Shown: positions 22,191 to 38,090, numbered from the stretch's first letter. The stretch is 64,000 nucleotides of DNA from an uncultured Rhodocyclaceae bacterium (GCA_964469455.1 CAYXZX010000002.1:4377-68376); one strand, 5' to 3'. Notes: generated by a model from the letters alone, not told the origin. Numbers and translations: made by a program.

Positions 22191-23422
22191 AGTGCGCGAA
22201 TTCTGATTCCTGCACCACAGGAGCGCTGTCGGGGATCAATGTGCTGGACTTCGGTCAGATGGTATCCGCTCCTTACTGCGCGAAGCTGTTCTCGGATTAC
22301 GGAGCCGACGTGATCAAGGTGGAACTTCCTTCTGGAGATGCCGCCCGCAGTGTTGGCCCGTTTCCCGGAGACGTTGCTAACCGCGAAAGAAGTGGCCTGT
22401 ACTTCATCAACAATACGAACAAGCGCGGCGTGACCTGTGATGTCACCTCGCCCGCGGGCCGCTCGCTTTTTCTGCGGTTGCTGGAATGGGCTGACGTTCT
22501 GATCGAGAACAACTTGCCCGGCCAGATGGCGGCCTGGCAACTCGACTATGCGAACATCAAGGCCATCAATCAGAAGTTGGTGATGATATCGATCACGCCG
22601 TTCGGTCAGTCGGGTCCCTACAGCGCCTGGAATGGCTACGACCTCAATGCCTATCATCTGACGGGAGCCAGTTCGCGCTATTGCGGGCGCCCCGGCGAGA
22701 TGCCGTTGGAACACGGGACGTTCTCGGCGGACTATTTTGGCGCCATCAGCGGGGCTACCTGGGGCATGGCTGCCGTTTATGGCCGCGACCTGGTCGGTGG
22801 TGGCCAGCATGTGGATGTGTCGTGTGCCGAGGCGATCGCCGCTGCATTCATCGGCGGACAGAATATTGGCGGTTATGCCCAGGATGGGCGTTTCGACAAG
22901 AGAACCGGCGTCGGCATGCCACAGGGCGCACCCGCTACTATCCTGCCGTGCAAGGACGGCCACGTCTGGATGCTGGCGCTTGAACCGGGCCAGTGGAATG
23001 GTTTGCGCAAGGTCATGGGCAACCCGGACTGGGCTGATCTGGACATCTTCCAGAACATGAAGACCCGCGCCGAGAACGCGGATGTCATCTACTCATTCAT
23101 CATCGAGTGGACAATGCAGCACACCAAGATGGAGATACAGGAAAAATGCCAGGCAGCCGGTTGTCCAATCACGGCTGTCTATACCGTGGCGGAGGCGGCC
23201 GAGCAGCCGCACTTGAAGGCACGCGAGTACTTCGTGGACATGGAACATCCGGAACTCGGCAGGATCAGGAATTTGGGTGGGCCTTTCAAGCTTCCTGCAA
23301 GCCCGGGAGGACCGGTTCGTCCGGCACCATTGCTCGGTCAACACAATGAACAGGTCTATGGAGAAGTGCTCGGCCTGAACGTGGGCGAGATCGAGTCCCT
23401 GAGCCGCCAGGGCGTGATCTGA
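22187..23422 (+). CDS. family III CoA-transferase (CaiB/BaiF family)
   Basis: INVLDFGQMVSAPYCAKLFSDYGADVIKVELPSGD signature. 411 aa. Confidence 0.9.
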   Translation: MKCANSDSCTTGALSGINVLDFGQMVSAPYCAKLFSDYGADVIKVELPSGDAARSVGPFPGDVANRERSGLYFINNTNKRGVTCDVTSPAGRSLFLRLLEWADVLIENNLPGQMAAWQLDYANIKAINQKLVMISITPFGQSGPYSAWNGYDLNAYHLTGASSRYCGRPGEMPLEHGTFSADYFGAISGATWGMAAVYGRDLVGGGQHVDVSCAEAIAAAFIGGQNIGGYAQDGRFDKRTGVGMPQGAPATILPCKDGHVWMLALEPGQWNGLRKVMGNPDWADLDIFQNMKTRAENADVIYSFIIEWTMQHTKMEIQEKCQAAGCPITAVYTVAEAAEQPHLKAREYFVDMEHPELGRIRNLGGPFKLPASPGGPVRPAPLLGQHNEQVYGEVLGLNVGEIESLSRQGVI

Positions 23423-23443
23423 TCGGGCGGCGGAGAGACACGG

Positions 23444-24664
23444 ATGAACAACACGTTGCCGCTCAAGGGTGTTCGCGTCGTCAATTTTGGCTGGGTTTGG
23501 GCGGGTCCGGTGGTGGGGCAGACACTGGGTTTTCTCGGGGCGGAAGTATTCAAGATCGAGTCGCGCGCGCGCGTCGACATGACGCGCAATCTGCCGCCGT
23601 TCGCCGAAGGCAAAGCCAGTCCCGATCGCAGCTTGTCGAATCATGCGTGTTGGGCAGGCAACGGCTCCGTGTCGCTGAACTTGAAAGAGCCCGAAGCGCT
23701 GCAACTGGCGAAAGATCTGATCGCCAAATCGGATATCGTCATCGAAAACTTCGGACCGGGCGTCATGGAAAGGCTCGGGCTCGGTTATGAGGAACTGCGC
23801 CAAGTAAGGGATGACATCATTCTCTTCTCGATGCCCGGCGCCGGCCTGTACGGCCCCATGAAGGACCTCCGCACCTACGGGCTCAGCCTGACGTCGACCA
23901 CGGGCCTCGATAGTCTGGTGGGCTACAAGGGCGGCGATCCGATTCCCGTGGAGAACGCTTTCTCCGACCCTTATGCGGGCATCTTGGGTGCTTTTGCCGT
24001 ATTGACGGCGCTCAATCATCGACGTAACACCGGCGTGGGCCAGCATATCGATTTCTCGCAGCAAGAGGCCGTGATGCAGATGGTCGGGCCGGCTTACATG
24101 GATTACCTGTTCAATGGCCGCAGCGGCGGGCCGAAAAGCAACGAGCATCCGCTTGCCGCCATGGCGCCGCATGGCGTCTTCCGGTGCAGGGGCGAAGATC
24201 GCTGGATCAGCATCGTCGTCGGTAGCGACGAGGAATGGCAAAACCTGCTGGCGGCGCTGAAGCATCCCGAATGGCTCAAGGTAAGCGAGTTCGCCACGCG
24301 CGAGCAGCGCCTGGCTCACGTTGACACGCTGCATGCCTTGATCGGCGAATGGACCGCGCAGTTCGATGACCGTGAATTGGCGGCGCTCCTGCAGAGCCAT
24401 GGCGTTGCCGCCACTCCGGTACTCAATGTCGGCGACCTGCTTGACGATCCGCATTACAGGGCGCGCAAGACCTTTATCGAGGTCGAGCATCCACTTGGAT
24501 TCAGGGAAACCATCTACGGTTCCTACGTGAAGCTGAGCCGTAGCGAGGTAGACGTGCGTCCTGGCCCGATCATCGGCCAGGACAACGATTATGTTTTTCG
24601 CAATTTGCTGGGCTTGTCCGAGGAACGTTATCGGCAGCTGATTGAACGGCAGGTCATCTTCTGA
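23444..24664 (+). CDS. family III CoA-transferase (CaiB/BaiF family)
   Basis: VRVVNFGWVWAGPVVGQTLGFLGAEVFKIES signature. 406 aa. GGAGAG RBS upstream. Confidence 0.88.
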   Translation: MNNTLPLKGVRVVNFGWVWAGPVVGQTLGFLGAEVFKIESRARVDMTRNLPPFAEGKASPDRSLSNHACWAGNGSVSLNLKEPEALQLAKDLIAKSDIVIENFGPGVMERLGLGYEELRQVRDDIILFSMPGAGLYGPMKDLRTYGLSLTSTTGLDSLVGYKGGDPIPVENAFSDPYAGILGAFAVLTALNHRRNTGVGQHIDFSQQEAVMQMVGPAYMDYLFNGRSGGPKSNEHPLAAMAPHGVFRCRGEDRWISIVVGSDEEWQNLLAALKHPEWLKVSEFATREQRLAHVDTLHALIGEWTAQFDDRELAALLQSHGVAATPVLNVGDLLDDPHYRARKTFIEVEHPLGFRETIYGSYVKLSRSEVDVRPGPIIGQDNDYVFRNLLGLSEERYRQLIERQVIF

Positions 24665-24692
24665 TCGACTTGTCTCGAAGGGGAGAATTGGC

Positions 24693-25613
24693 ATGAAATT
24701 CGCGCTGGCAGGACTTGGCCTGGACAACTATCCTCCGGTAGTTGCGCCTTGGGAGCGTACGTCTGGGGGGGCGGAGGTGCTGCGCTATGCCCGCAAGGCC
24801 GATAGCCTAAGCTGGGATTGGCTGACGATTCCCGAGCATGTCCTGATGCCCTGCGACATGGTCGAGCACATGGGCACGCGCTTCGTCGAGGCGATGGCGG
24901 CGTCGGCTGCGCTGATGGGCGCGACCACACGGATCCACATGCTCACTTACATCCTGCCCGTGGTCTATCGTCATCCGCTGTTGCTGGCCAAGCAGGTCGC
25001 TACCATGGAGTTTCTTGCCGGCGGCCGTTTTACCCTGGGAACCGCCGTCGGTCATCTCGAGAAGGAATTCGAGGCACTGAACGTGCCGTTCGAGAAGCGT
25101 GGCCAAATGACGGATGAATACATCCGGGTGCTCAAGGAGGCATGGACTTCCGACCGGCCCTCGTTCGACGGCGAATTCGTCAAGTTCCAGGATGTGGTCA
25201 TCGAGCCCAAGCCGGTACAGAAGCCGCACCCGCCGATCTTCATCGGTGGCAATTCAAAGCCGGCGATGCGACGCGCCGCCAAACTCGGCGATGGCTGGAT
25301 CCCGTGGTTGGTCACGGCCGAGACCTTGCCGGAGTGCATCGCCTACATGAAGGGACTGCCGGAATATCAGGAAAAGGCGGACCGTTTCGAGATACTGGTG
25401 ACCACCACGACATACGCTCAGGACGATCACCACCGGGCTTACGGCAAGACACACCTCTCGGCCGACCGTGACGGCGTGTTGCGGGAAATCGAGGGCCTGA
25501 AGAAGGCAGGTGCGACCTCGGTCCAGGTGCGGCCGCCGAACACGGATACGCTCGAGCAATGCCTGGAATGGCTCGAGTGGTACGACCAGGAAATCATTCC
25601 CCAATTTCGCTGA
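24693..25613 (+). CDS. LLM class (F420-type, Rv2161c-like) oxidoreductase
   Basis: MKFALAGLG..., FLAGGRFTLGTAVG and HPPIFIGGNSKPAMRRAAKLGDGWIPW are typical of this LLM subgroup. Confidence 0.78.
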   Translation: MKFALAGLGLDNYPPVVAPWERTSGGAEVLRYARKADSLSWDWLTIPEHVLMPCDMVEHMGTRFVEAMAASAALMGATTRIHMLTYILPVVYRHPLLLAKQVATMEFLAGGRFTLGTAVGHLEKEFEALNVPFEKRGQMTDEYIRVLKEAWTSDRPSFDGEFVKFQDVVIEPKPVQKPHPPIFIGGNSKPAMRRAAKLGDGWIPWLVTAETLPECIAYMKGLPEYQEKADRFEILVTTTTYAQDDHHRAYGKTHLSADRDGVLREIEGLKKAGATSVQVRPPNTDTLEQCLEWLEWYDQEIIPQFR

Positions 25614-25633
25614 CGGAGAGCCGGAGACCCGCC

Positions 25634-26464
25634 ATGAACGAGCAATTCAAATACATCCAGTTCCGCGTCGAGGACAACGTCGGCGTCATTACCCTGAACC
25701 GCCCGGAGAAACTCAATGCGGTCAGTTGGGAAATGGCCGAGGAACTGTCGGGGCTTCTGCGGACCTTGCATTTTCGTGACGAGGTTCGGGCCATTGTCCT
25801 GACCGGCGCCGGGCGTGGTTTTTGCGCCGGCGGCGATCTGGAATGGATTTCCGGCGAAAGCGACCGCCCCATGCCCGGCACGTCGGACGCGTCGCGCCCC
25901 GTTCCCCGCTCCCAGCGCAAGACCCCGGGCGGACCGTTCTTCGAAGTCACTCGGCAACTAGTGGAAGTCGACAAACCGGTCATTGCCGCGATTCACGGTG
26001 TCTGCGTGGGTGCCGGGCTGGCCTATGCATCGGCATGTGATCGGCGCTTTGCCGACAGCACGACCAAGATGTCGGCGATCTTCACCAATGTAGGGGTGGC
26101 GCCCGACTGCGGCATCTCGTATTTCCTGCCACGCATCGCCGGCTTTTCCAACGCATTGATGATGGTCGAGACCGGCAAGATATTCAAGGCCGAGGAATGT
26201 AAGCAGTTGGGCATCGTCGACGAACTCGTACCCGAGGGACAGGACTTTGCCGCGGCAATGGAGTACGCCAAGATGATCGCCCAGCGGCCCAGCGTGGCGG
26301 TGGACATGGCGCGTCGCCTGATTCACATGTCGCAAAGAGCGACGCTGGACGAGATTCTCGACTACGAGGGACTTGCCGGCGTCTGTGTCGCGGCCAGCGC
26401 CGACGCCAAGGAGGGCACCATGGCCTTCATGGAAAAGCGCAAGCCGGTTTATCGGGGCGTCTGA
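25634..26464 (+). CDS. enoyl-CoA hydratase/isomerase family protein with an internal insertion
   Basis: VITLNRPEKLNA, GAGRGFCAGGDLEW and IHGVCVGAGLAYASACD. An insertion of about 35 aa rich in Pro/Ser/Arg follows the oxyanion motif. Confidence 0.88.
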   Translation: MNEQFKYIQFRVEDNVGVITLNRPEKLNAVSWEMAEELSGLLRTLHFRDEVRAIVLTGAGRGFCAGGDLEWISGESDRPMPGTSDASRPVPRSQRKTPGGPFFEVTRQLVEVDKPVIAAIHGVCVGAGLAYASACDRRFADSTTKMSAIFTNVGVAPDCGISYFLPRIAGFSNALMMVETGKIFKAEECKQLGIVDELVPEGQDFAAAMEYAKMIAQRPSVAVDMARRLIHMSQRATLDEILDYEGLAGVCVAASADAKEGTMAFMEKRKPVYRGV

Positions 26465-26577: not shown

Positions 26578-27375
26578 CTACAGCGTCTTGTCCGCTCGCA
26601 ACCTGGCCAGCAACTGTTGCGCAACTTCGGCCGGCGAGCCGGTGAGAAACTCGCAATTACCCTGGACCGTTGGCACGAACTGCCGCGTCAGCACCACCTC
26701 CGCCGTGAGGGCGCTGCCATCAAGCCCCAGGGAGTCAATGGTCATTTCAACGGGCACCATCTTGCGTGCCGCCATCTTGGCCTTGGCACTGGGGAAGCGC
26801 GGAACGCCGATCTCGTTGCTGATGGTGACGACGGCCGGCAGCTGACCTTCGACCACTTCATCGCCGTCCGGCGTCACGCGAGTCACGGTGAGCGTGGTGC
26901 CGCTCACCGTGGCGGCACGCGCCAAGGGCGCCACAGGCATGCGGAGTTTTTCCGCAAGCAGGATGGGCACGACCCCCTGGTCATCGTCGGACGCCTGGCG
27001 GCCACAAAGGATGAGGTCCGCGCCGCCGCTGTTCTTCACATACGCCGCCAGAATGTTGGCGAGGCCGTTGCCATCCAGTTCGCCCGCGCCGGGCGCAATG
27101 GCGACGATCTCGTCGGCGCCGAGCGCCGCGCAGTGCTTGAGCACGTTCTTGGCATCCGTGCCGATGGAGACCGCGACGATGCGGCAGTCGACGCCCGCGT
27201 CCCTGATGCGCAGGGCCGCTTCCATGGCCTGCTCGTCGTAACCGTTGATCAAACGGGGTACGGCGGCGACCTCCGGGGTCCGGCCATCGGCACCGATCGT
27301 CAACTTGCCGGCCAGCGCGTAGTTATTGACGGCGTTCGGATCCAGCACTTCCTTTACACATACGACGATACGCAT
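26578..27375 (-). CDS. electron transfer flavoprotein beta-subunit (EtfB/FixA)-like protein; no alpha-subunit gene adjacent
   Basis: MRIVVCVKEVLDPN..., INGYDEQAMEAALRI, LILCGRQASDDDQGVVP and LPAVVTISNEIGVPRFPS match the ETF-beta architecture. AGGAGA RBS 8 nt upstream of the ATG at 27375. Confidence 0.8.
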   Translation of the reverse strand: MRIVVCVKEVLDPNAVNNYALAGKLTIGADGRTPEVAAVPRLINGYDEQAMEAALRIRDAGVDCRIVAVSIGTDAKNVLKHCAALGADEIVAIAPGAGELDGNGLANILAAYVKNSGGADLILCGRQASDDDQGVVPILLAEKLRMPVAPLARAATVSGTTLTVTRVTPDGDEVVEGQLPAVVTISNEIGVPRFPSAKAKMAARKMVPVEMTIDSLGLDGSALTAEVVLTRQFVPTVQGNCEFLTGSPAEVAQQLLARLRADKTL

Positions 27376-27395
27376 TCGATTGCTCTCCTGGCCGG

Positions 27396-27719
27396 TCACG
27401 GCACCAGTGGAATGGATAGCTTGTCCTCGTCGAGGATGGTGAGATTTCCGGAATCGCACCACACTGCCTCGAGGGAGTAGCCGTTGGGCTTTTTCGTCAA
27501 TTCTGTCATCAAATACCAGCGCCAAGGATAGGGTCCGAAGTCGCGGTAGTTGCCGGTGAGCTTGCCGGCGAAATCCTGGCGGCCCGCCAAGTGCGTGCCC
27601 GCGACGGGCGCGCCGCCATCGCACTCGGCGCGCACGCCGCTCAACCGCGGCTCGAAGCCGCTGAGAAACGGCGGCTCGTCGGGCTTGTCGTCAGGCGTTG
27701 GCGAAACGGTCGAAGACAT
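27396..27719 (-). CDS. hypothetical small protein (107 aa), unknown family
   Basis: GC3-rich ORF with an AAGAGG RBS 6 nt upstream of the ATG. It overlaps the NMO stop by 29 nt and ends 20 nt before the EtfB-like start. I recognise no motif. Confidence 0.5.
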   Translation of the reverse strand: MSSTVSPTPDDKPDEPPFLSGFEPRLSGVRAECDGGAPVAGTHLAGRQDFAGKLTGNYRDFGPYPWRWYLMTELTKKPNGYSLEAVWCDSGNLTILDEDKLSIPLVP

Positions 27720-28788
27720 CGAGCGCCTCTTCGACGATGTCCGACAGAATCTGTCGCGCCGGCTTCATCTCGGTGACGTAGTGAATGCCCTGACCGGCAG
27801 CCTCGGTCATCAAGTCCTTGCGCTGGTAGTCGAGGGAGCCCTGGATGTAGTTGGATGAAAGGATCATCTGCAGCGGCGGCTTCAGTACTTCCGGCGCCTC
27901 CGGGCTCGCCCATTCGTTGTGCCAGGGACTGCGCGTGGTGCGCATGGTGTAGCCGGAAATGCAGTCGGAGTAAACCGTGTCGTCGGTTTCAGCTTCGATC
28001 AGGCGTTCCTTGAGCGGCAGATTGACATCCGATTCGCGGGACGCCAGCCAGAGCGAGCCGGTCCACACGCCATCGGCGCCGAGTGCGAGGGCGGCTGCCA
28101 GGTGACGGCCGGTGGTGACTCCACCCGCGGCGATGATCGGCACACCCGTTCCCCGCGCGGCATCGACCACCTGCGGAACGATGGAAAACGTGCCGATGTT
28201 GCCGGTATGGCCGGCGGCATCGAAGCCCTGGGCGATGATGACGTCGGTGCCGGCGGTAAGTTGCTTTTTCGCCTGGCGAGGCTTGCCTACCAGCCCCCAG
28301 ACCTGCATGCCGAGTTCATGGGCGCGCTTGAGCAGGAAGGCGGGCGACCCGAGACCGGAGGCGAACACCGGCACGCGTTCGTCGAAAATCACTTCCAGCT
28401 GGTTGAGCGCCCGCTTCTGGTCAAGGCCTCCCCACACATGGATATCGGGCCGGATCTTGGGATCGGGTACGTTGTACTTTGCCTTGATCTTCTGCTCGAA
28501 GGCACGGTGCTCGGCCGGGATCATGGCAATCAGTTCCTCGACCGACTTTTCCTCGGGGACCGAGGAAGGGAGTACCAGGTCGATGCCAAAAGGCTTGCCG
28601 CCGATACGCTCGCGAATCCACTTGATGTCCGCGGCGATATGATCCGGGGTGTGCAGCGCTTCGCCGAGCACGGCAAAGCCACCGGAATTGATCACGGCAA
28701 CGGCGACGTCTTTGCAATGGGTGAAGGCGACGATCGGGTACTCGATGCCCAGTTTGTCGCACAAGGGGGTGTGCAGGGGACCGCTCAT
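27691..28788 (-). CDS. NMO / 2-nitropropane dioxygenase-like FMN oxidoreductase (enoyl-reductase-like, IpdC-type candidate)
   Basis: YPIVAFTHCKDVAVAVINSGGFAVLG, GGKPFGIDLVLP, IIAQGFDAAGHTG, IIAAGGVTTGRHLAAALALGADGVW. AAGGAG RBS upstream. Confidence 0.85.
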   Translation of the reverse strand: MSGPLHTPLCDKLGIEYPIVAFTHCKDVAVAVINSGGFAVLGEALHTPDHIAADIKWIRERIGGKPFGIDLVLPSSVPEEKSVEELIAMIPAEHRAFEQKIKAKYNVPDPKIRPDIHVWGGLDQKRALNQLEVIFDERVPVFASGLGSPAFLLKRAHELGMQVWGLVGKPRQAKKQLTAGTDVIIAQGFDAAGHTGNIGTFSIVPQVVDAARGTGVPIIAAGGVTTGRHLAAALALGADGVWTGSLWLASRESDVNLPLKERLIEAETDDTVYSDCISGYTMRTTRSPWHNEWASPEAPEVLKPPLQMILSSNYIQGSLDYQRKDLMTEAAGQGIHYVTEMKPARQILSDIVEEALDVFDRFANA

Positions 28789-28854
28789 GAAGGACTCCTT
28801 CTGGAAGGATGGTATTCCGCGAGAAGCAATTTAGTTTCTTGATCGATGCGAGTA

Positions 28855-28877
28855 ATCCCCCATTCGGACGAGGTCGG
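28855..28877 (+). promoter_or_regulatory. candidate operator, degenerate copy B of the shared motif (ATCCCCCATTCGGACGAGGTCGG)
   Basis: Lies in the divergent region between the NMO gene (-) and the Mo-hydroxylase operon (+). Matches the copy at 39454-39476 at 15 of 23 positions. The right arm GACGA and the CCATTC spacer are conserved, but the left arm is degenerate. Confidence 0.3.
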
Positions 28878-28991
28878 CGGGGCATCGCCGATAGTCCGTT
28901 TGGGGGTTGACTGCTCAGGTTCCCAATGTGACCATGGGCCGAGGCGTATGCACTGATGCAGCGGGACCAAGCGTAAAGAGGAATCCTCCCA

Positions 28992-29867
28992 ATGAAGCCG
29001 GCAAATTTTGACTACCATGCGCCCCAGACGCTTACCGAGGCGGTCGAACTGATGGCCCGCCTCGACGAGGAAGGGGTGGACGCCAAGATTATCGCCGGCG
29101 GCCAGAGCCTGATGCCGATGCTGGCGATGCGCGTCGCGCGTCCCGAAGTCCTGGTGGATCTCGCCAGGATCAAGTCGCTCGACTACGTGCGCGACGAGGG
29201 CGGCGCGATCGCCATCGGCGCGATGACCAGCAAGCGCGCGGCCGAGGAATCGGTGCTGATCGAACAGCGGCAGCCGCTTTTCCATGCCGCCACGAAGCTG
29301 GTGGGTCATCGGCAGATCCGCAACCGCGGCTCCGTTGGCGGTTCCTTCGCCCATGCCGATCCCGCCTCAGAATATCCTGCCGTGGCGCTCGTCCTTGACA
29401 TGGAATTCAAGGCGGTGGGTCCGGAGGGCGAGCGCACGATCCCGGCCGCCGATTTCTTCGTGACTTACATGACCACCAGCCTGGAATGCACCGAGGTATT
29501 GACCGAAGTCCGGCTGCCGGCATTGCCCGTCGGGATGGGTTGGTCGATCCAGGAGTTCGCGCGCCGCAACGGTGATCTGGCGCTGGCCGGCGTTGCCGTG
29601 ACGCTGAAGGTCACCGGTGGCGTGTGTGCCGAGGCTCGCCTCGCAGCGTTTGGCGTCAATGCCACGGCAGTGCGTTTGACGGCTGCGGAAGATTTTCTCG
29701 CGGGCAAGCGTTCAGGACGCTCCGTTTTCCAACAGGCGGCAGCGCTGGCTGCCGAGGGCATCGACGAACCGATGTCCTGCGTCCACGCCTCGGCGGATTA
29801 TCGGCGCCACTTGGTCCGGGTGCTGGCCGAGCGTTGCCTGAACGAGGCCGCTGGACGTGCGGCGTAG
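28992..29867 (+). CDS. xanthine dehydrogenase/CO dehydrogenase family FAD-binding medium subunit (CoxM-like)
   Basis: FDYHAPQTLTEAVELM, IIAGGQSLMPMLAMR and IRNRGSVGGSFAHADP motifs of the FAD-binding (PCMH-type) subunit. Confidence 0.92.
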   Translation: MKPANFDYHAPQTLTEAVELMARLDEEGVDAKIIAGGQSLMPMLAMRVARPEVLVDLARIKSLDYVRDEGGAIAIGAMTSKRAAEESVLIEQRQPLFHAATKLVGHRQIRNRGSVGGSFAHADPASEYPAVALVLDMEFKAVGPEGERTIPAADFFVTYMTTSLECTEVLTEVRLPALPVGMGWSIQEFARRNGDLALAGVAVTLKVTGGVCAEARLAAFGVNATAVRLTAAEDFLAGKRSGRSVFQQAAALAAEGIDEPMSCVHASADYRRHLVRVLAERCLNEAAGRAA

Positions 29868-29897
29868 GAAACTCGGGCCGACGTTGAATCTGGAGAA

Positions 29898-30401
29898 TTG
29901 ATTGCGATGATCACCAAGCAGCGCATTTGCGTCACGGTCAATGGCGTCTGCCATGAACGAGAAGTGGAGCCCCGTCTGACCCTGGCCGATTTTCTTCGGC
30001 ATGAACTGGCGCTCGGTGGCACGCACGTCGGCTGCGAGCATGGCGTCTGCGGCGTTTGCACGGTTCTGATCGACGGGCGTTCGGCCCGTTCCTGCCTGAC
30101 GCTGGCCGTGCAGGTCGATGGCGCCCAGGTCACCACGGTGGAGGGCTTGCGCAACCGCGAGACCGGTCACCTGCATCCCATTCAGCAGGCTTTTGTCGAA
30201 GCGCACGGCCTGCAATGCGGTTTCTGCACGCCGGGGTTCATGATGACGACCCTCGAGTTGCTCACGGAAAACACCGAGCCCAGCGACGACGAGATCAAGG
30301 AGGCGTTGGGTGGCAACCTGTGTCGCTGTACCGGCTACGAAAGCATCATCGCTTCGGTGCGGCTGGCGGCCAAGCGACTGCGCGAGCAAAAAAGCGCCTG
30401 A
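29898..30401 (+). CDS. (2Fe-2S)-binding small subunit of a molybdenum hydroxylase (CoxS-like); alternative ATG at 29907
   Basis: Two cluster motifs: [12 protein letters not shown]...SC and [11 protein letters not shown]...LCRCTGY. Confidence 0.93.
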
Positions 30402-30449
30402 GGCGCGATTCCAGCCCCATCCCAGCTCCCCCAGGCATAGGCGGACCCC

Positions 30450-32864
30450 ATGGCAATCAAGATTCCCACCCTTCCCGAGCATCTGCCGACAACCGCGCCC
30501 CGCTTCGTGGGCAAGGAAGTCAAGCGCATCGAGGATCCCGGCCTGGTGTCGGGGACGGCCGGATTCATCGACAACCTCTCCCTGCCCGGCATGCTTCACT
30601 GCGCAATCCTGCGCAGCCCCCATCCGCATGCTCGGGTGATCGGCGTGGACACGCGCGCCGCCGAGGCGCTTCCGGGCGTGATTGCCGTCCTGACCGGCGA
30701 GGATGCCCGGCGTTGGTCTAACCCGGCGTACACCGCGCCGGAGGGCTGGGGCGCCTACTGCATCGCGGTCGATAAGGTCCGTTTCGTCGGCGAGCCGGTT
30801 GCCGCCGTCGCGGCGGTGAGCCGTTACGTGGCCGAGGATGCACTCGAGCTGATCGAGGTTGAATACGACGTACTCAAACCGGTGCCGACGCCGGCCGTGG
30901 CGATGGCGCCCGACGCGCCGGTGCTTTTCGAGGAACGCGGCAGCAACGTGATCCAGAGCCGGCTGTACAACTGGGGCGAAGTGGACCGTGTATTCGCCAA
31001 GGCCGACCACGTCGTCCGGAACACCTTTCGCTGGAATCGGGTCGGCGCCAATCCGACCGAGACTTTCGGCTGCATCTGCCAATGGGATCTGAGCGACAAC
31101 AGCCTGACCTGCCACGGCTCCTACCAGACGCCGCGCTTCTGGGCCATGGCCCGCGCCCTGGCGCTCAACCTGCCGACCAACAAGGTGAAGGTGATCCCGC
31201 ATCCCCAAGGCGGGGGGTTCGGCGGCAAGGGCGGGCCCCGCGGCACGGACATCGCAGCCCTGCTGTCGCGCAAGTCGGGCGGGCGGCCGGTGAAGTACAT
31301 CGAGGACCGCATGGAGTATCTCCTGGCGGGCTTTGGCCAGTCATGGGATCGTTATTACGATGCGGCCCTGGCCGTAAAGGCCGACGGCACGGTGATGGGC
31401 CTGAAAGTGAAGCTGATCGACGATCAAGGCGCCGGCACGGAAGGATGGGGAACGATTTCCGTGGCGAAGCCCTTGGCGGCGTTTACCAGTTCCTACCGTA
31501 TCGAGGCGGCGCAGTACGATACCGTGCTGGTCGCCACCAACCGGGCACCGACGGGACCATACCGGGGCTATGGGCCACCGCCGCATTTTCTGGTGCTCGA
31601 ATCGCTGATGGACATGGCGGCGCGCAAGCTCGACCTCGATCCGGCCGAACTGCGCCGGCGCAACTACATTCGTCCGGAACAGTTCCCCTACACGATACCG
31701 AGCGGCAATGAATACGACAGCGGCAATTACGAGGCCGTGCTCGACAAGGTGCTGGCGATGTCCGACTACCGCGGCCTGCGCGAAAGTCAGGCACGGGGAC
31801 GCGCCGAGGGACGCCTGATCGGGATCGGGGTCGTCAGCACAGTCGAGCCGGGCGTGTTTGACTGGAATGCCTACGCCACCGTCGGCGTGCAGGGCATTGG
31901 CGTGCCCGAGGGCGCCAAGGTGTCGTTCGACATGCTGGGCAACCTGACGGTCGTCGTCGGTTTCAATCTTCAGGGTCAGGGGCAGTTCACGGTGGCCGCG
32001 CAAGTGGCAGCGGATTACTGGGGACTGGACCTGGGTGCCGTCAAGGTTACGTCGGCTCCCACGGACATTGCGCCACCGAGCTTCGGCCAGGGCGGCAGTC
32101 GCCTGGGGGTGGCGGTGACAGGGGCGGTTCTCGGTGCCTGCGAGAAGTTGAAGGCCATTTTCGGCCAGGTGGTGGCCCACCTGATGCAGACCACCCCGGA
32201 TCAGGTCGAACTGATGGACGGACGATTGCGGTTGAAGGCGAATCCGCAGGTCGGCATGACCTTGGCCGAGGTCGCCGGCACCATGCTCGGCCGGAGCGAC
32301 CTGCTGCCGCCCGGCATGGAACCCAGCCCGGAGGCGACGTTCGTGTGGACGGCCGAAGGGCGCACCATGCCCGATGATCAAGGCCGATGCCGGTCCTACC
32401 TGACGGCGGCCAATGCCACCCATGTGGTGATGGTCGAAGTCGACCGGGACACCGGCCGCACCGAGATCCTCAAGTATTTCATCGTGGACGACTGCGGCAC
32501 CCGCCTTAACCTCGCCAACGTCGAAGGGCAGTTGCAGGGGGCGCTTGCCCAGGGCGTGGGTGCCGCCCTGTACGAGGAATACGTCTACAACGAAGAAGCG
32601 CAACCGTTGGTGACGACCTTCGTCGATTACCTGATTCCGACGATCCACGAAGTGCCGATGGCGGCCAAGGATTTCGTGGTTACGCCATCGCCGGTGGCAC
32701 CGTTGGGCGCCAAGGGTTGCGGCGAAGGGGCCATTCATACCACGCCAGCTGCCATACTCTGCGCCATCAATGATGCACTGGCGCCGCTGGGGCTGGAAAT
32801 CACGGAGACTCCCGCTTCTCCCCATCGCGTCTGGAAGACGCTGCAACAGGCCGCCACGCGCTAG
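30450..32864 (+). CDS. molybdopterin-binding large subunit of a xanthine-oxidase-family hydroxylase (804 aa)
   Basis: N-terminal a/b-hammerhead pattern (GKEVKRIEDPGLVSGTAGFIDNL...HARV) and a C-terminal GAKGCGEGAIHT motif carrying the conserved Glu. I did not find the CODH active-site loop VAYRCSFR. Confidence 0.92.
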   Translation: MAIKIPTLPEHLPTTAPRFVGKEVKRIEDPGLVSGTAGFIDNLSLPGMLHCAILRSPHPHARVIGVDTRAAEALPGVIAVLTGEDARRWSNPAYTAPEGWGAYCIAVDKVRFVGEPVAAVAAVSRYVAEDALELIEVEYDVLKPVPTPAVAMAPDAPVLFEERGSNVIQSRLYNWGEVDRVFAKADHVVRNTFRWNRVGANPTETFGCICQWDLSDNSLTCHGSYQTPRFWAMARALALNLPTNKVKVIPHPQGGGFGGKGGPRGTDIAALLSRKSGGRPVKYIEDRMEYLLAGFGQSWDRYYDAALAVKADGTVMGLKVKLIDDQGAGTEGWGTISVAKPLAAFTSSYRIEAAQYDTVLVATNRAPTGPYRGYGPPPHFLVLESLMDMAARKLDLDPAELRRRNYIRPEQFPYTIPSGNEYDSGNYEAVLDKVLAMSDYRGLRESQARGRAEGRLIGIGVVSTVEPGVFDWNAYATVGVQGIGVPEGAKVSFDMLGNLTVVVGFNLQGQGQFTVAAQVAADYWGLDLGAVKVTSAPTDIAPPSFGQGGSRLGVAVTGAVLGACEKLKAIFGQVVAHLMQTTPDQVELMDGRLRLKANPQVGMTLAEVAGTMLGRSDLLPPGMEPSPEATFVWTAEGRTMPDDQGRCRSYLTAANATHVVMVEVDRDTGRTEILKYFIVDDCGTRLNLANVEGQLQGALAQGVGAALYEEYVYNEEAQPLVTTFVDYLIPTIHEVPMAAKDFVVTPSPVAPLGAKGCGEGAIHTTPAAILCAINDALAPLGLEITETPASPHRVWKTLQQAATR

Positions 32865-32876
32865 GAGCGAGCGTCC

Positions 32877-33941
32877 ATGCGCGTGGAAACCGCCCTGCTC
32901 GGGCCCGATACCGACCAATATGCCGGCACGGGACAGAGTCGGCCCACGCTGGCGAGCATTGCCGCCAGTGCCAGAGAGGCGGAAGAACTCGGTTTCGATG
33001 GTCTGACAAGTGCCGAAGCCGGGCATGACCCGTTCATCCCGCTGGCGGTTGCCGCCGAACACACACGGACCATCACGCTCGGCACCAACGTTGCCATTGC
33101 CTTTCCGCGCAGCCCCATGGCCACGGCGCAGGCGGCCTGGGACTTGCAGAACCTGTCCGGTGGGCGTTTCACGCTTGGCCTTGGCACGCAGGTGAAGGGT
33201 CACAACGAGCGGCGCTACAGCACGCCCTGGCCCAGTCCGCCCGGTCCGCGCATGCGCGAATATTTCCAGTGCCTGCGCGCCATTTTCAGCAGCTTTCAGA
33301 ATCCCGCCAAGCCGAGCTACTTTGAGGGCCAGCACTATCGCTTCACCATGCTGCCGCCTTTCTTCAACCCCGGGCCGATCGAGCATCCCCAGGTGCCGAT
33401 CTATGCCGCTGCCGCCAACCCGTTCATGGCTCGGCTCGCAGGCGAGATGTGCGCAGGCCTGCGCCTGCATCCGATCTCGACTTTCCGCTACACGCGCGAA
33501 GTCATCCTGCCCGCTGTTGCCGCTGGCGCCGAACGCGGCGGCCGAACATCGGCATCGTTCGATCTCATCGGCGCGCCCTTCATGGCCCTGGGCAGGGATG
33601 AGGCGCAGCTGGACGCGGCAAAAAACGCGTTGCGCAAGCAGATCGCCTTTTACGCATCGACGCGCTCCTACCATGGGGTGCTTGCCCATCACGGCTGGGG
33701 AGACATCGGGCTCGAACTGCATCGGCTTTCGGTGGCGGGACAATGGGCCGGAATGCCGGCGCTGATTACGGACGACATGCTCGAGGAATGGGCCGTCATC
33801 GCCACGTACGATCGTCTGGCGGAAACCATTCGGGCCCGATGTGCCGGCTTGTTCTCCACCGTGGTGCTGGTCTTGCTGGGCGAGGCCAGGCGCGACACCG
33901 ATCTGCTGCGCGAAACGGTTGGGCGCTTGCATCGGGATTGA
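32877..33941 (+). CDS. LLM family F420-type oxidoreductase, paralog of the CDS at 3351-4385
   Basis: AFPRSPMATAQAAWDLQNLSGGRFTLGLGTQVK and HYRFTMLPPFFNPGPIEHP are collinear with the CDS at 3351-4385. Confidence 0.8.
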   Translation: MRVETALLGPDTDQYAGTGQSRPTLASIAASAREAEELGFDGLTSAEAGHDPFIPLAVAAEHTRTITLGTNVAIAFPRSPMATAQAAWDLQNLSGGRFTLGLGTQVKGHNERRYSTPWPSPPGPRMREYFQCLRAIFSSFQNPAKPSYFEGQHYRFTMLPPFFNPGPIEHPQVPIYAAAANPFMARLAGEMCAGLRLHPISTFRYTREVILPAVAAGAERGGRTSASFDLIGAPFMALGRDEAQLDAAKNALRKQIAFYASTRSYHGVLAHHGWGDIGLELHRLSVAGQWAGMPALITDDMLEEWAVIATYDRLAETIRARCAGLFSTVVLVLLGEARRDTDLLRETVGRLHRD

Positions 33942-33958
33942 ACCCACTTTCACGGACC

Positions 33959-35239
33959 ATGCTTTCCATGAATACACATGATTTCTCAGGCGGCCCCCTT
34001 GCCGGATTGCGGGTACTGGACTTGTCGACCATGCTGGCCGGCCCTTATGGCGCCACTCTGCTGGGCGATCTTGGCGCCGACGTGATCAAGGTCGAATCCC
34101 ACTATGGAGACGAGAGTCGCCATCTGGGACCGAAGCGGGGCAGCGAGCGTGGTCCCTACCTGAGTCTCAACCGAAGCAAGCGTGATATCGTCCTCGACCT
34201 GCAGAATTCAGAAAGCCGGGAGATATTCTCGCGCCTGCTGCGCACAACCGATATTCTCGTCACCAATATCCGAGAACCGGCATTGAGCAAGCTCGGCATC
34301 GACTACGACCAGGTCAAGGCGAGCAAGCCCGACATCATCTGGATCCGCGTTACGGCCTTCGGGCCGGATGGTCCCTATGCCGGGCGTCCCGGCATCGACT
34401 TTCTGGCACAAGGCTACACGGGCGTGCTCACACTCAATGGCGAGCCTTCGGGTGGGCCCGTGCGCACCGGTTTCCCCGCCGTCGACGTGATGACTTCACT
34501 GCTGGTCAGCAATTCGGCGCTGGCCGCGCTGCGGGTACGGGACAAGACCGGCGAAGGGCAGCGAATCGAGGTTTCGCTTCTGGATTCCCTGATGCATGCC
34601 CAAGCCAGTTCGATCGGAACCTATCTGGCAACCGGCGAGCGGCCGGTCAGGACCGGCAACCGCAGTCTCTATTTCGCGCCCTCCGGCGTTTACCCGACGA
34701 AGGATGGCAAGCATGTCGTCATTACCACGCCGGGCGAGAAATTCTTCGCCAAGGTTTGCCGTGGCCTGGGTACGGACTGGGACACCGATCCGCGCTTCCA
34801 CGATATCAATGCCCGCCTGGCCAATCAGGACGAACTCGATCGGGTCATGAGCGAACGGACCAGCCAGTTCACCCGCGAGGAACTCGTGGAGCGCCTGATC
34901 GCCGATGACGTGCTGACGGCGCCGATCAACGAGGTCGAAGATGTCATCCAGGACCCGCAGATACGGCACAACAAGATGATCGTTTCGACCGAGCATCCGG
35001 TACTCGGGCGGATCGAGGTGACGGGAATTCCGATCCGCTTCTACGGCACGCCCTGCGCCATCACCAAGCATCCGCCGATGCAGGGAGAGCATACTCGCGA
35101 CGTCCTCGCAGAGCTGGGCTATGCGTCGGAAGAGGTGGACAACCTGATTGCCAAGGGACTGGTGGCCGATCCAACGGAAATGCAACGCCTGCGCGACCAG
35201 CGCAGGGCCAGGCAGGGCACTCGCCGCACCGACGGCTGA
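33959..35239 (+). CDS. family III CoA-transferase (CaiB/BaiF family); alternative ATG at 33968
   Basis: LRVLDLSTMLAGPYGATLLGDLGADVIKVESHYGDE signature. The ORF-track N-terminal extension from 33743 overlaps the upstream LLM gene. Confidence 0.9.
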   Translation: MLSMNTHDFSGGPLAGLRVLDLSTMLAGPYGATLLGDLGADVIKVESHYGDESRHLGPKRGSERGPYLSLNRSKRDIVLDLQNSESREIFSRLLRTTDILVTNIREPALSKLGIDYDQVKASKPDIIWIRVTAFGPDGPYAGRPGIDFLAQGYTGVLTLNGEPSGGPVRTGFPAVDVMTSLLVSNSALAALRVRDKTGEGQRIEVSLLDSLMHAQASSIGTYLATGERPVRTGNRSLYFAPSGVYPTKDGKHVVITTPGEKFFAKVCRGLGTDWDTDPRFHDINARLANQDELDRVMSERTSQFTREELVERLIADDVLTAPINEVEDVIQDPQIRHNKMIVSTEHPVLGRIEVTGIPIRFYGTPCAITKHPPMQGEHTRDVLAELGYASEEVDNLIAKGLVADPTEMQRLRDQRRARQGTRRTDG

Positions 35240-35260
35240 CATCGTCTCGCGTCGGGACCG

Positions 35261-36559
35261 ATGGCGACACCGTCCTCGAATTCCACCGAGCCTGTTCCAG
35301 GAACGCGAGCGGCCGGGCCTTACGCCTGGTACGTCCTGGCGCTGCTGTCGCTGACCTATGTGCTGAATTTCATCGACCGGCAGATCCTGGCGATGCTGAT
35401 CGAGCCGATCAAGAAGGAGTTTGGTGTCTCCGATACCGCGATGGGATTCCTGTCCGGCTTTGCCTTCGTCTTCTTTTACACCATCGCGGGTATTCCCGTT
35501 GCCCGCTGGGCCGATCGTGGCTCCCGCAAGACGATCATCACGGCGGCGCTGGTCATCTGGAGCACGATGACGGCGGTTTGCGGATTTACTCGCAGTTTCG
35601 CCCAATTGGCTGTGGCCCGGGTCATGGTTGGCGTCGGCGAAGCAGGCGGCAGTCCGCCGGCCCATTCACTGATTTCAGACTACTTCCCACCGCGACAGCG
35701 TGCCACGGCGCTGGCGATCTATGCTTGGGGTGTCTACATTGGTGCCGCGCTGGCTTTCCTCGCCGGCGGTTATCTGATCCAGCGTTATGACTGGCGCAGC
35801 GCGTTCGTGATCGTCGGACTACCCGGGATTGCGCTGGCGACTTTGTTCGCACTGACGGTTCGGGAACCACCGAGAGGCTGGTCGGAGGGGCGAAGTGCCG
35901 CGCCGGCACCACCGCTCGTCGAGACGTTGCGGCATCTTGCCAATAGTCGTGCCTTTGTCCTCATCACGCTGGGTTCGTCGATACAGTCGCTGTCGGGCTA
36001 TGGCGTGCTCACTTGGGGGCCGACGTTCCTGTCGCGCGTCCATGCAATGAGTTGGAGCGACATCGGCATTGCGCTCGGCAGCATTATCGGCGTTGCCGGA
36101 TGCCTCGGAGCGTTCGTCGGCGGCCGCCTCGCGGACCGCTTTGGTGTCCGTGATGCGCGGTGGTACATGCGCCTCCCCGCCATCCAGTCCCTGCTGTGCG
36201 TCCCATTCGTTTCGGGATTCGTGCTGATGCCGACCCCGGAGGGCTCCCTGCTGAGCTTCATTCCGTTTTATGCCCTTGGCGCCATGTATCTGGGCCCGAT
36301 GTTCGCGGTGATCCAGGGCTTGGTACCTTTACGCATGCGTACCCTCGCTTCCGCGATCCTGCTGTTTGTCGTCAACATGGTGGGGCTGGGCCTGGGGCCT
36401 CTAGCCATTGGTGTTCTCAACGACCATGTTTTTCCCGCGCACGGGGCCGAGGCGATTCGATATTCGATGCTGGTGATGGGTGTTGCCGGGGGAGGGGCCG
36501 CTCTGCTGTTTTGGCTGTCGTCCAGAACGCTGGAGTCAGAATTGCGGCGAGCGGACTGA
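35261..36559 (+). CDS. MFS transporter (432 aa)
   Basis: Multi-TM hydrophobic profile. MFS motif-A-like ARWADRGSRK between TM2 and TM3. A second half repeats the pattern (GGRLADRFGVRD). Confidence 0.88.
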   Translation: MATPSSNSTEPVPGTRAAGPYAWYVLALLSLTYVLNFIDRQILAMLIEPIKKEFGVSDTAMGFLSGFAFVFFYTIAGIPVARWADRGSRKTIITAALVIWSTMTAVCGFTRSFAQLAVARVMVGVGEAGGSPPAHSLISDYFPPRQRATALAIYAWGVYIGAALAFLAGGYLIQRYDWRSAFVIVGLPGIALATLFALTVREPPRGWSEGRSAAPAPPLVETLRHLANSRAFVLITLGSSIQSLSGYGVLTWGPTFLSRVHAMSWSDIGIALGSIIGVAGCLGAFVGGRLADRFGVRDARWYMRLPAIQSLLCVPFVSGFVLMPTPEGSLLSFIPFYALGAMYLGPMFAVIQGLVPLRMRTLASAILLFVVNMVGLGLGPLAIGVLNDHVFPAHGAEAIRYSMLVMGVAGGGAALLFWLSSRTLESELRRAD

Positions 36560-36578
36560 TCTGCGCGCTGCTCAGATG

Positions 36579-38070: not shown

Positions 38071-38090
38071 CCAGGCTGTTTGGCTTCGGT

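What the first reader, a model, noticed from the sequence alone, without database searches (positions are those of the whole stretch)
28992..36559. Xanthine-oxidase-family Mo hydroxylase co-operonic with an LLM, a CoA-transferase and an MFS transporter: candidate anaerobic hydroxylase of the pathway
Seen: the FAD subunit has AGGQSLMP. The 2x[2Fe-2S] subunit has [12 protein letters not shown] and CGFCTPG...CRCTGY. The 804-aa Moco subunit carries the conserved C-terminal GAKGCGEG Glu. These three are followed on the same strand by an LLM oxidoreductase, a family-III CoA-transferase and an MFS transporter. I did not find the CODH loops (VAYRCSFR or AYRGAGR), so this is not a CO dehydrogenase.

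Established: XO-family enzymes hydroxylate with water-derived oxygen. The heterotrimeric AtcABC 1-testosterone hydratase/dehydrogenase of the anaerobic 2,3-seco androgen pathway in Steroidobacter and Sterolibacterium belongs to this family.

Inference: inside an island with steroid-type beta-oxidation and HIP genes and no oxygenases, this enzyme could be Atc-like. Alternatively it could be a new hydroxylase acting on a CoA ester or alicyclic ring. The gene order M-S-L and the attached LLM/transferase/MFS genes may define a new operon type.
Basis: partly seen in the sequence, partly recalled or inferred. Interest (0 to 1): 0.7.

Follow-up and report, generated by a model that had tools for sequence, protein, structure and literature searches.

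The report
AtcABC anaerobic steroid ring-A enzyme operon
This is the already-known molybdenum enzyme AtcABC (1-testosterone hydratase/dehydrogenase) that prepares steroid ring A for oxygen-free cleavage, found with its usual neighbouring genes in an uncultured sewage-sludge bacterium; it is a correct call but an ordinary one.

Summary
Six tightly packed + strand genes at 28992-36559 encode an FAD subunit, a 2x[2Fe-2S] subunit, an 804-aa Moco subunit, an LLM oxidoreductase, a family-III CoA-transferase and an MFS transporter. All quoted motifs are present and the CODH loops are absent.

The Moco subunit is 78% identical, with no gaps, to AtcA of Sterolibacterium denitrificans (SMB21166.1). It is 80% identical to Denitratisoma sp. 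DHT3 AtcA and 76% to Thauera terpenica AtcA. It nests inside that clade with 100/100 bootstrap. Everything outside the AtcA family is at most about 43% identical. The published atcA reverse primer matches exactly. A homologue of the ring-A hydrolase SRAH lies 15 kb upstream.

The "new operon type" idea is not supported. S. denitrificans Chol-1S has the same order: ETF and NMO divergent, then FAD-FeS-Mo-LLM-CoA-transferase-MFS, at 67-88% identity. FAD-FeS-Mo order holds in nearly all of the 80 genome loci examined.

Verdict: an AtcABC operon of the 2,3-seco pathway in an uncultured Rhodocyclaceae bacterium, a new member of a known kind. The roles of the conserved LLM and CoA-transferase remain open.

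The parts
28992..29867 (+). FAD-binding medium subunit of the AtcABC-type enzyme (291 aa; AGGQSLMP). I did not establish whether it is AtcB or AtcC.
   Evidence: Pfam FAD_binding_5 3.7e-45 and CO_deh_flav_C 2.2e-21. 71% identical to the gene at the same position in S. denitrificans. Found 1.4 kb upstream of the Mo subunit in nearly all 80 loci.
29907..30401 (+). Small subunit with two [2Fe-2S] clusters (164 aa)
   Evidence: Pfam Fer2_2 4.4e-33 and Fer2. Both Cys motifs are in the translation. 75% identical to the S. denitrificans counterpart.
30450..32864 (+). AtcA, the molybdopterin-binding catalytic subunit of 1-testosterone hydratase/dehydrogenase (1-TDH), 804 aa
   Evidence: 78% identical with 0 gaps to S. 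denitrificans AtcA SMB21166.1. 80% to DHT3 QDX80120.1 and 76% to T. terpenica WP_021248954.1. Clade bootstrap 100/100. The atcA reverse primer matches exactly at 31698-31724. All 30 clade-signature residues are present.
32877..33941 (+). LLM-class oxidoreductase (354 aa) of the TIGR03617 'F420-dependent LLM' subfamily; role in the pathway unknown
   Evidence: NCBIfam TIGR03617 scores 384 bits against a cut-off of 278. Closest solved structures are F420-dependent Mer and FGD. 75% identical and at the same position in S. denitrificans. It recurs near atcA in several lineages.
33968..35239 (+). [quoted passage not shown]
   Evidence: Pfam CoA_transf_3 2.5e-118. Orthologues at 78-83% lie directly downstream of atcA in Thauera, Aromatoleum, Azoarcus, Rubrivivax and Sterolibacterium, and at 58-63% nearby in Myxococcota and Binatia MAGs.
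35261..36559 (+). MFS transporter (432 aa), last gene of the operon
   Evidence: Pfam MFS_1 3e-51. 67% identical and at the same position in S. denitrificans. Found only in the Sterolibacterium/Rhodocyclaceae subgroup.
27691..28788 (-). NMO/FabK-like FMN protein (365 aa), divergently transcribed from the atc operon
   Evidence: Pfam NMO. FabK model 161 bits, below its cut-off. 88-90% identical in Sterolibacterium and Steroidobacteraceae loci, so more conserved than AtcA itself.
26578..27375 (-). ETF beta-like subunit (265 aa), followed by a 107-aa ORF with no family match (27396-27719)
   Evidence: Pfam ETF and NCBIfam EtfB-like 119 bits. Same position in S. denitrificans at 77% identity.
22139..26464 (+). 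Conserved upstream module: two family-III CoA-transferases, a second LLM (TIGR03619 type) and an enoyl-CoA hydratase
   Evidence: Pfam and NCBIfam. The same four genes, at 69-77% identity, sit directly upstream of atc in T. terpenica 58Eu, A. toluclasticum, Azoarcus Aa7 and Rubrivivax MAGs.
13556..14542 (+). Amidohydrolase-2 protein (328 aa), probable steroid ring-A hydrolase (SRAH), the next enzyme of the pathway
   Evidence: Pfam Amidohydro_2. 83-87% identical to the amidohydrolase genes next to atc in T. terpenica, T. butanivorans and Azoarcus, and 79% to a Sterolibacterium MAG protein. SRAH is described as an Amidohydro_2 enzyme clustered with 1-TDH genes in PMC11780191.
37078..39281 (-). 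AraC-family (330 aa) and LuxR-family (396 aa) regulators downstream on the opposite strand; possible regulators of the cluster
   Evidence: Pfam HTH_18/Arabinose_bd and GerE. The AraC orthologue (66-70%) is near atc in several Rhodocyclaceae and gammaproteobacterial loci.

Best explanation
Genes 28992-32864 encode an orthologue of AtcABC (also called 1-TDH), the heterotrimeric xanthine-oxidase-family molybdoenzyme of the anaerobic 2,3-seco steroid pathway.

Established for the family: the enzyme converts the 1-en-3-one of 1-testosterone or androst-1-ene-3,17-dione into the 1,3-diketone, using water as the oxygen source (literature cited).

Inferred from general XO-family enzymology: the Mo-bound hydroxyl, with the conserved E759 as base, attacks the electrophilic C-1. 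The two electrons then pass from Mo through the two [2Fe-2S] clusters of the small subunit to the FAD of the medium subunit, and on to an acceptor that is unknown in vivo.

The 1,3-diketone is then cut hydrolytically by the amidohydrolase-2 enzyme SRAH, probably encoded at 13556-14542. This gives the 2,3-seco acid.

The co-operonic genes are the standard accessories of this locus in the Sterolibacterium lineage. I infer that the family-III CoA-transferase (33968-35239) activates the seco acid to its CoA ester, and that the MFS protein moves a steroid or steroid acid. The reaction of the F420-type LLM is not known.

The host is an uncultured activated-sludge Rhodocyclaceae bacterium.
For: - Architecture and motifs of an XO-family heterotrimer.
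- The large subunit is 78% identical over 801 aa, with no gaps, to S. denitrificans AtcA. That protein is P0473 = SMB21166.1, an accession listed as AtcA in PMC7264893.
- It is 80% identical to DHT3 QDX80120.1 and 76% to T. terpenica WP_021248954.1, both listed as AtcA. B9N43_01910-01920 is named the 1-testosterone hydratase/dehydrogenase cluster in 10.1101/710707.
- It is 78% identical to the Aromatoleum evansii homologue. A. evansii KB740 was shown to grow on testosterone plus nitrate.
- In an NJ tree the window sits in the core clade with these proteins, bootstrap 100/100. The whole family is monophyletic against its 42 nearest outgroups, 100/100.
- Among 1.84 billion 50%-identity representatives, only one full-length protein is close (64%, 1169 bits). 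The next scores 595 bits at 41%.
- All 30 clade-specific residues are present.
- The atcA-specific reverse primer matches with 0 mismatches. The forward primer has 4 mismatches with a perfect 12-nt 3' end. The predicted amplicon is 1173 bp, against about 1.1-1.2 kb expected.
- The locus is collinear with the S. denitrificans Chol-1S atc locus over nine genes, eight of them scored at 67-88% identity.
- An SRAH-like gene and ipdAB/ipdC-like HIP genes are in the same window.
Against: - No activity, expression or cofactor data exist for this protein. Function is transferred by orthology.
- I could not retrieve the sequence of the enzyme actually purified, Steroidobacter denitrificans AtcA WP_066918684.1. 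Identity to it is untested. The nearest proxies are Steroidobacteraceae MAG proteins at 76-79%.
- Paralogues exist in the family. Denitratisoma oestradiolicum TWO81844.1 (71%) is not the accession listed as its AtcA. Some 63% homologues lack adjacent FAD and FeS genes. Substrate range could therefore differ between subclades.
- The roles assigned to the CoA-transferase, LLM and MFS genes rest on conserved gene neighbourhood only.
Confidence: 0.9

Rival explanations
1. The enzyme is an AtcA-family paralogue with a different natural substrate. It could act on another 3-oxo-1-ene steroid (a bile-acid or sterol intermediate that still carries a side chain) or on a monocyclic or alicyclic enone, as MhyADH of Alicycliphilus denitrificans does. 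The chemistry would be the same Michael-type hydroxylation and oxidation, on a different molecule.
For: Paralogues exist within the family. MhyADH is used as the outgroup for atcA trees, so it is a related enzyme with the same chemistry. The window holds many acyl-CoA dehydrogenases and CoA-transferases that could also serve alicyclic acids.
Against: The window protein lies in the same 100%-bootstrap core clade as the S. denitrificans, DHT3 and T. terpenica AtcA proteins, not on a separate branch. The locus is collinear with the S. denitrificans atc locus. The linked SRAH family is reported to show virtually no conversion of cyclohexane-1,3-dione. Steroid C/D-ring (ipdAB-like) genes are in the same window.
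Confidence: 0.07
2. It is a generic XO-family hydroxylase unrelated to steroids: an N-heterocycle, aldehyde, 4-hydroxybenzoyl-CoA or form-II CoxL-like enzyme. Its place in a beta-oxidation island would then be coincidental.
For: The best NCBIfam and PDB matches by name are CoxL, quinoline 2-oxidoreductase, glyceraldehyde dehydrogenase and 4-HBCR. Public annotations call the homologues 'caffeine dehydrogenase' or 'CO dehydrogenase'.
Against: All those matches are far below the curated cut-offs: 469 vs 991, 454 vs 790 and 412 vs 995. Outgroups outside the AtcA family are at most about 43% identical, against 76-80% to AtcA. The CODH loops are absent. The FAD subunit scores 101 against a cut-off of 404 for the 4-HBCR beta-subunit model.
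Confidence: 0.02

Closest known systems
AtcABC / 1-TDH (1-testosterone hydratase/dehydrogenase) of Sterolibacterium denitrificans Chol-1S (AtcA = SMB21166.1), with its locus in LT837803.1
   Same: It has the same three subunits in the same order. The nine-gene neighbourhood is the same: ETF-beta-like, a small ORF and NMO divergent, then FAD, FeS, Mo, LLM, CoA-transferase and MFS. Identities are 78% (Mo), 71% (FAD), 75% (FeS), 75% (LLM), 78% (CoA-transferase), 67% (MFS), 88% (NMO) and 77% (ETF).
   Different: S. denitrificans has a toxin-antitoxin pair inserted between the LLM and the CoA-transferase. In the window the locus is also joined to the Thauera-type upstream module (CoA-transferase, CoA-transferase, LLM, ECH) and to an SRAH-like gene. 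Neither lies within 10 kb of atc in S. denitrificans.
atcABC clusters of Thauera terpenica 58Eu (AtcA WP_021248954.1), Thauera butanivorans, Aromatoleum toluclasticum, A. evansii and Denitratisoma sp. DHT3 (QDX80120.1)
   Same: AtcA is 75-80% identical. The upstream DUF2889, CoA-transferase x2, LLM, ECH module is the same. The same CoA-transferase orthologue (80-83%) lies directly downstream of atcA, and SRAH-like genes (83-87%) lie within 5-11 kb.
   Different: The Thauera/Aromatoleum type lacks the downstream LLM and MFS genes and the divergent NMO/ETF pair. The window combines features of both cluster types.
AtcABC purified from Steroidobacter denitrificans DSM 18526 (AtcA WP_066918684.1; Yang et al. 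2016, as cited)
   Same: This is the founding, biochemically characterised member: an XO-family heterotrimer with Moco, FAD and Fe-S clusters. Steroidobacteraceae MAG homologues are 76-79% identical to the window protein and fall in the same core clade.
   Different: Its sequence was not retrievable here, so the direct identity is unknown. Steroidobacteraceae loci lack the CoA-transferase and MFS genes, and mostly the LLM, next to atcA.
MhyADH (3-hydroxycyclohexanone dehydrogenase / Michael hydratase) of Alicycliphilus denitrificans
   Same: It is an XO-family enzyme that does the same hydration-plus-oxidation of a cyclic enone to a 1,3-dione. It is used as the outgroup for atcA trees.
   Different: Its substrate is monocyclic. 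No Alicycliphilus locus was among the 80 best genome loci, whose identities run down to about 61%.
Solved XO-family structures: mycobacterial CoxL (8uem), quinoline 2-oxidoreductase (1t3q), Afipia (Oligotropha) carboxidovorans CODH (1n5w), 4-hydroxybenzoyl-CoA reductase (1rm6)
   Same: The overall fold and domain order are the same. Conserved residues are shared, including G254, G255, K260, R372 and the catalytic E759.
   Different: They score only 299-424 bits. The CODH active-site loop is absent. None of the AtcA signature residues is found in more than 10% of the outgroup sequences; examples are W175, W299, P376, H379, D471-W472-N473, Q512, R638, R685 and H763.

Membership tests
AtcABC / 1-TDH (XO-family 1-testosterone hydratase/dehydrogenase) | Three separate subunits: FAD-binding, 2x[2Fe-2S] and Moco-binding | tested here: met
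   Pfam domains on three adjacent genes; cofactor motifs in the translations.
AtcABC / 1-TDH (XO-family 1-testosterone hydratase/dehydrogenase) | Large subunit orthologous to the AtcA proteins named in the literature (S. denitrificans SMB21166.1, DHT3 QDX80120.1, T. terpenica WP_021248954.1) | tested here: met
   78%, 80% and 76% identity over the full length. Core clade and family monophyly both 100/100. The next non-family relative is at most 43% identical.
AtcABC / 1-TDH (XO-family 1-testosterone hydratase/dehydrogenase) | Close similarity to the purified Steroidobacter denitrificans enzyme (WP_066918684.1) | not tested
   The sequence did not appear in three protein searches or three cluster look-ups, and Yang et al. 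2016 is not held. Only Steroidobacteraceae MAG proxies at 76-79% are available.
AtcABC / 1-TDH (XO-family 1-testosterone hydratase/dehydrogenase) | Matches the atcA-specific degenerate PCR primers used as an environmental marker | tested here: met
   Reverse primer: 0 mismatches at 31698-31724. Forward primer: 4 mismatches at 30552 with the last 12 nt exact. Amplicon 1173 bp against about 1.1-1.2 kb expected.
AtcABC / 1-TDH (XO-family 1-testosterone hydratase/dehydrogenase) | Genomic association with the ring-A hydrolase SRAH and other 2,3-seco or HIP genes | tested here: met
   Amidohydro_2 gene at 13556-14542, 83-87% identical to the atc-linked amidohydrolases of Thauera and Azoarcus. ipdAB/ipdC-like genes at 59076-63521. 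Direct identity to the characterised SRAH WP_154715975.1 was not obtained.
AtcABC / 1-TDH (XO-family 1-testosterone hydratase/dehydrogenase) | Catalyses 1-testosterone or 1-AD to the 1,3-dione; induced by androgens or sterols | not testable with these tools
   Needs an enzyme assay or transcriptomics.
Aerobic CO dehydrogenase large subunit (CoxL forms I/II) | Active-site loop VAYRCSFR (form I) or AYRGAGR (form II); score above the curated family cut-off | tested here: not met
   The loop reads TGPYRGYGPPPHF. TIGR02416 scores 469 vs 991 and NF040766 scores 457 vs 950.
4-Hydroxybenzoyl-CoA reductase (HcrABC) | Equivalog-level match of all three subunits | tested here: not met
   Alpha 412 vs 995, beta 101 vs 405, gamma 164 vs 258.
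MhyADH (cyclohexenone hydratase/dehydrogenase) | Orthology to the Alicycliphilus denitrificans MhyADH large subunit | not tested
MhyADH is treated as an outgroup to AtcA in PMC5554518.

The most novel reading that the evidence does not exclude
[quoted passage not shown] The literature describes this step as catalysed by an unidentified CoA ligase or transferase. The Mer/FGD-like 'F420-type' LLM at 32877-33941, and perhaps the highly conserved NMO/ETF-beta pair, could carry out an unrecognised redox step, such as reduction of the delta-4 double bond, in a proteobacterium not known to make F420. Separately, atc-FAD/FeS/Mo-SRAH operons in Myxococcota, Binatia, Spirochaetaceae and Chloroflexota MAGs would extend the pathway beyond the beta- and gammaproteobacteria to which it is currently said to be restricted.
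Probability: 0.35. Interest if true: 0.4.

Novelty: new member of a known kind. Interest (0 to 1): 0.2.

Why it matters
AtcA, and now SRAH, are used as marker genes for oxygen-independent removal of androgens and sterols in wastewater and sediments. This window shows a complete atc operon, an SRAH-like gene and HIP genes together in an uncultured activated-sludge Rhodocyclaceae bacterium. That is useful for attributing steroid removal in treatment plants to specific organisms. It adds no new biochemistry.

The only forward-looking value is the set of accessory genes (CoA-transferase, LLM, NMO/ETF-beta, MFS). They are consistently linked to atcA and have no assigned function. They are reasonable candidates for pathway steps the literature still lists as unidentified.

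Tried and rejected
- I tried to obtain the Steroidobacter denitrificans AtcA sequence. The founding paper is not held. A profile search built from six Steroidobacteraceae MAG proteins and three cluster look-ups did not return it. They did return S. denitrificans AtcA (SMB21166.1).
- I tried to tie the window's amidohydrolase to the characterised SRAH accession WP_154715975.1. Only Sterolibacterium MAG relatives at 79% were found, and the paper's supplement is not held.
- Promoter and terminator scans across 26400-39500 were uninformative: 1 and 8 sites against 2.1 and 9.2 expected.
- NCBIfam has no model for AtcA, and none of the ten nearest 50%-cluster representatives reaches any equivalog cut-off, so the outgroups could not be named.
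- P0079, whose longest contig is 4.03 Mb, was checked in case it was Thauera sp. GDN1. The places returned were MAG or metagenome contigs. They were useful for synteny only.
- CO dehydrogenase, 4-HBCR, xanthine, nicotinate and quinoline hydroxylases, and aldehyde oxidoreductases were considered and rejected on scores and motifs.

Full report
**Observation**

Pfam assigns them as follows:
- 28992-29867: FAD_binding_5 and CO_deh_flav_C
- 29907-30401: Fer2 and Fer2_2
- 30450-32864: Ald_Xan_dh_C, MoCoBD_1 and MoCoBD_2
- 32877-33941: Bac_luciferase
- 33968-35239: CoA_transf_3
- 35261-36559: MFS_1

All quoted motifs are in the translations. The Glu of GAKGCGEG is E759, which is conserved across the family and its outgroups. 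The position of the CODH signature loop reads TGPYRGYGPPPHF, which matches neither CODH signature. Gaps between the genes are 12-48 nt, consistent with a single operon. Consensus promoter and terminator scans gave nothing above chance.

No NCBIfam equivalog cut-off is reached by any of the three subunits. The best scores are CoxL 469 vs 991, glyceraldehyde dehydrogenase 454 vs 790 and 4-HBCR 412 vs 995. The best solved structures are mycobacterial CoxL and quinoline 2-oxidoreductase, at about 420 bits.

**Source organism**

The exact protein occurs on activated-sludge metagenome contigs. The closest genome is a Rhodocyclaceae MAG, 92% identical for the Mo subunit (L009).

**Identity of the enzyme**

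A search of 5.8 billion proteins returned full-length homologues at 70-94% identity. They include:
- Denitratisoma sp. DHT3 B9N43_01920: 80%
- Thauera terpenica 58Eu M622_02760: 76%
- Sterolibacterium and Steroidobacteraceae MAGs: 76-79%

The DHT3 genome paper names B9N43_01910-01920 as the cluster encoding 1-testosterone hydratase/dehydrogenase. A review from the discovering laboratory lists the AtcA accessions: SMB21166.1 (S. denitrificans), QDX80120.1 (DHT3), WP_021248954.1 (T. terpenica) and WP_066918684.1 (Sdo. denitrificans). Cluster look-ups showed that my hits P0008, P0043 and P0473 carry the DHT3, T. terpenica and S. denitrificans accessions respectively.

BLASTP of the window protein against S. 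denitrificans AtcA gives 78% identity over 801 residues with no gaps. Against the Aromatoleum evansii homologue it also gives 78%. A. evansii KB740 was shown experimentally to grow on testosterone and nitrate.

The atcA-specific degenerate reverse primer matches the window exactly at 31698-31724. The forward primer sits at 30552 with 4 mismatches and a perfect 12-nt 3' end. Together they predict a 1173-bp product, against about 1.1-1.2 kb expected.

**How isolated the family is**

An exhaustive HMMER scan covered 1.84 billion 50%-identity representatives. Only one full-length representative is close (64%, 1169 bits). The next scores 595 bits at 41% identity. None of those nearest outgroups is a named equivalog.

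I built an NJ tree from 85 family members and 42 outgroups. The family is monophyletic in 100/100 bootstraps. The core clade holds the window, DHT3 AtcA, T. terpenica AtcA and the Sterolibacterium and Steroidobacteraceae sequences, and it is also recovered 100/100. Thirty positions are nearly invariant in the family and rare in the outgroups, and the window protein carries the family residue at every one.

**Operon type**

I ran tblastn with the window's proteins against 80 genome loci.
- FAD (-1.4 kb), FeS (-0.5 kb), Mo order holds in nearly all loci.
- The downstream CoA-transferase has 78-83% orthologues directly after atcA in Thauera, Aromatoleum, Azoarcus and Rubrivivax.
- The LLM, CoA-transferase, MFS arrangement and the divergent NMO/ETF pair are shared with Sterolibacterium and Rhodocyclaceae MAGs.

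The model organism S. denitrificans Chol-1S (LT837803.1) has the same nine-gene layout: ETF, a small ORF and NMO divergent, then FAD, FeS, AtcA, LLM, CoA-transferase and MFS. It differs only by a toxin-antitoxin insertion. Identities are 67-88%.

The 20 kb upstream of atc in the window also matches the Thauera-type cluster. That stretch runs CoA-transferase, MaoC pair, ACAD, DUF2889, two CoA-transferases, LLM, ECH. The proposed new operon type is therefore the standard atc neighbourhood.

**Pathway context**

Jacoby et al. 2025 identified the next enzyme, the ring-A hydrolase SRAH. It is an amidohydrolase-2 protein whose gene clusters with the 1-TDH genes. The window has such a gene at 13556-14542. 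It is 83-87% identical to the atc-linked amidohydrolases of Thauera and Azoarcus, and 79% identical to a Sterolibacterium MAG protein.

The 3' end of the window carries ipdA/ipdB-like CoA-transferase genes, an IpdC-like NMO and an OYE-MaoC fusion.

**Mechanism**

Established by the cited literature: AtcABC adds water-derived oxygen at C-1 of the 3-oxo-1-ene A ring and oxidises it to the 1,3-dione. This enables hydrolytic ring opening.

Inferred from XO-family enzymology and the conserved residues: the Mo-OH attacks C-1 with E759 as base. Electrons flow from Mo through the two [2Fe-2S] clusters to FAD and then to an unknown acceptor.

Inferred from gene neighbourhood only: the CoA-transferase activates the seco acid, a step the literature lists as unidentified. 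The MFS protein transports a steroid or steroid acid. The LLM has no assigned reaction. It belongs to the TIGR03617 'F420-dependent' subfamily, and its closest solved relatives are Mer and FGD.

**Limits**

I could not obtain the sequence of the purified Steroidobacter denitrificans enzyme or of MhyADH. Those two comparisons remain undone. Paralogues exist in the family. No experimental data exist for this protein.

**Verdict**

The new-operon claim and the alternative of a different hydroxylase are not supported. This is a new member, from an uncultured Rhodocyclaceae bacterium, of a known enzyme and gene cluster. Interest is low.

Noticed in passing
Loci L052-L088 (genome MAGs; the Mo subunit sits at about 10001-12400 in most): Homologues of AtcA at 62-66% identity keep the FAD-FeS-Mo order. 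In most, an SRAH-like amidohydrolase (59-77% identical) follows immediately, about 2.5 kb from the start of the Mo gene. By their record titles these MAGs are Myxococcota/Deltaproteobacteria, Candidatus Binatia, Spirochaetaceae, Chloroflexota and Thermodesulfobacteriota. PMC11780191 states that SRAH/1-TDH are restricted to beta- and gammaproteobacteria.
   Followed up: partly
window 32877-33941 and 24693-25613: Both LLM genes of the cluster pass the curated cut-offs of NCBIfam 'F420-dependent LLM class oxidoreductase' subfamilies: TIGR03617 at 384 vs 278 and TIGR03619 at 209 vs 167. The host is a Rhodocyclaceae bacterium, a group not known for F420. The cofactor and reaction are unexplained.
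   Followed up: partly
window 26578-28788 (- strand): The NMO/FabK-like gene divergent from atc is the most conserved gene of the locus: 88-90% identical in Sterolibacterium and Steroidobacteraceae, against 76-78% for AtcA. It is paired with an ETF-beta-like gene, with no ETF-alpha seen nearby, and with a 107-aa ORF that has no family match and overlaps the NMO start. It is a possible enoyl or delta-4 reductase module; the function is unknown.
   Followed up: partly
window 10229-10876 (- strand): A 215-aa COXG/SRPBCC (Polyketide_cyc2) protein lies 2.7 kb upstream of the SRAH-like gene. CoxG-type proteins usually accompany XO-family enzymes, and the fold binds lipids, so this could be an AtcABC accessory or a steroid-binding protein.
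   Followed up: no
window 57395-63521: Steroid C/D-ring (HIP) type genes: an OYE (Oxidored_FMN)-MaoC fusion (512 aa), an ipdA-like CoA_trans gene (59076-59993) followed by a probable ipdB-like gene with no Pfam hit (59997-60782), and an IpdC-like NMO (62394-63521).
   Followed up: partly
P0103 (Denitratisoma oestradiolicum TWO81844.1); L085, L056, L065: The family contains paralogues. The D. oestradiolicum protein found here (71% identical) is not the accession listed as its AtcA (TWO78727.1). One Rhodocyclaceae MAG carries both a 77% copy (L015) and a 63% copy (L085). L085, L056 and L065 lack adjacent FAD and FeS genes.
   Followed up: no
L091 13651-14164; L089/L090 15532-16160: Toxin-antitoxin pairs (Unstab_antitox/ParE-like) are inserted within or just after the atc operon in S. 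denitrificans and in a Thauera-type cluster. The window has none at these positions.
   Followed up: no
window 21315-22190, and a second copy just downstream of the TonB-dependent receptor gene (49015-51498): Two DUF2889 proteins (259 and 297 aa) lie inside the steroid island. One sits directly upstream of the paired CoA-transferases, a position conserved in Thauera-type clusters.
   Followed up: no
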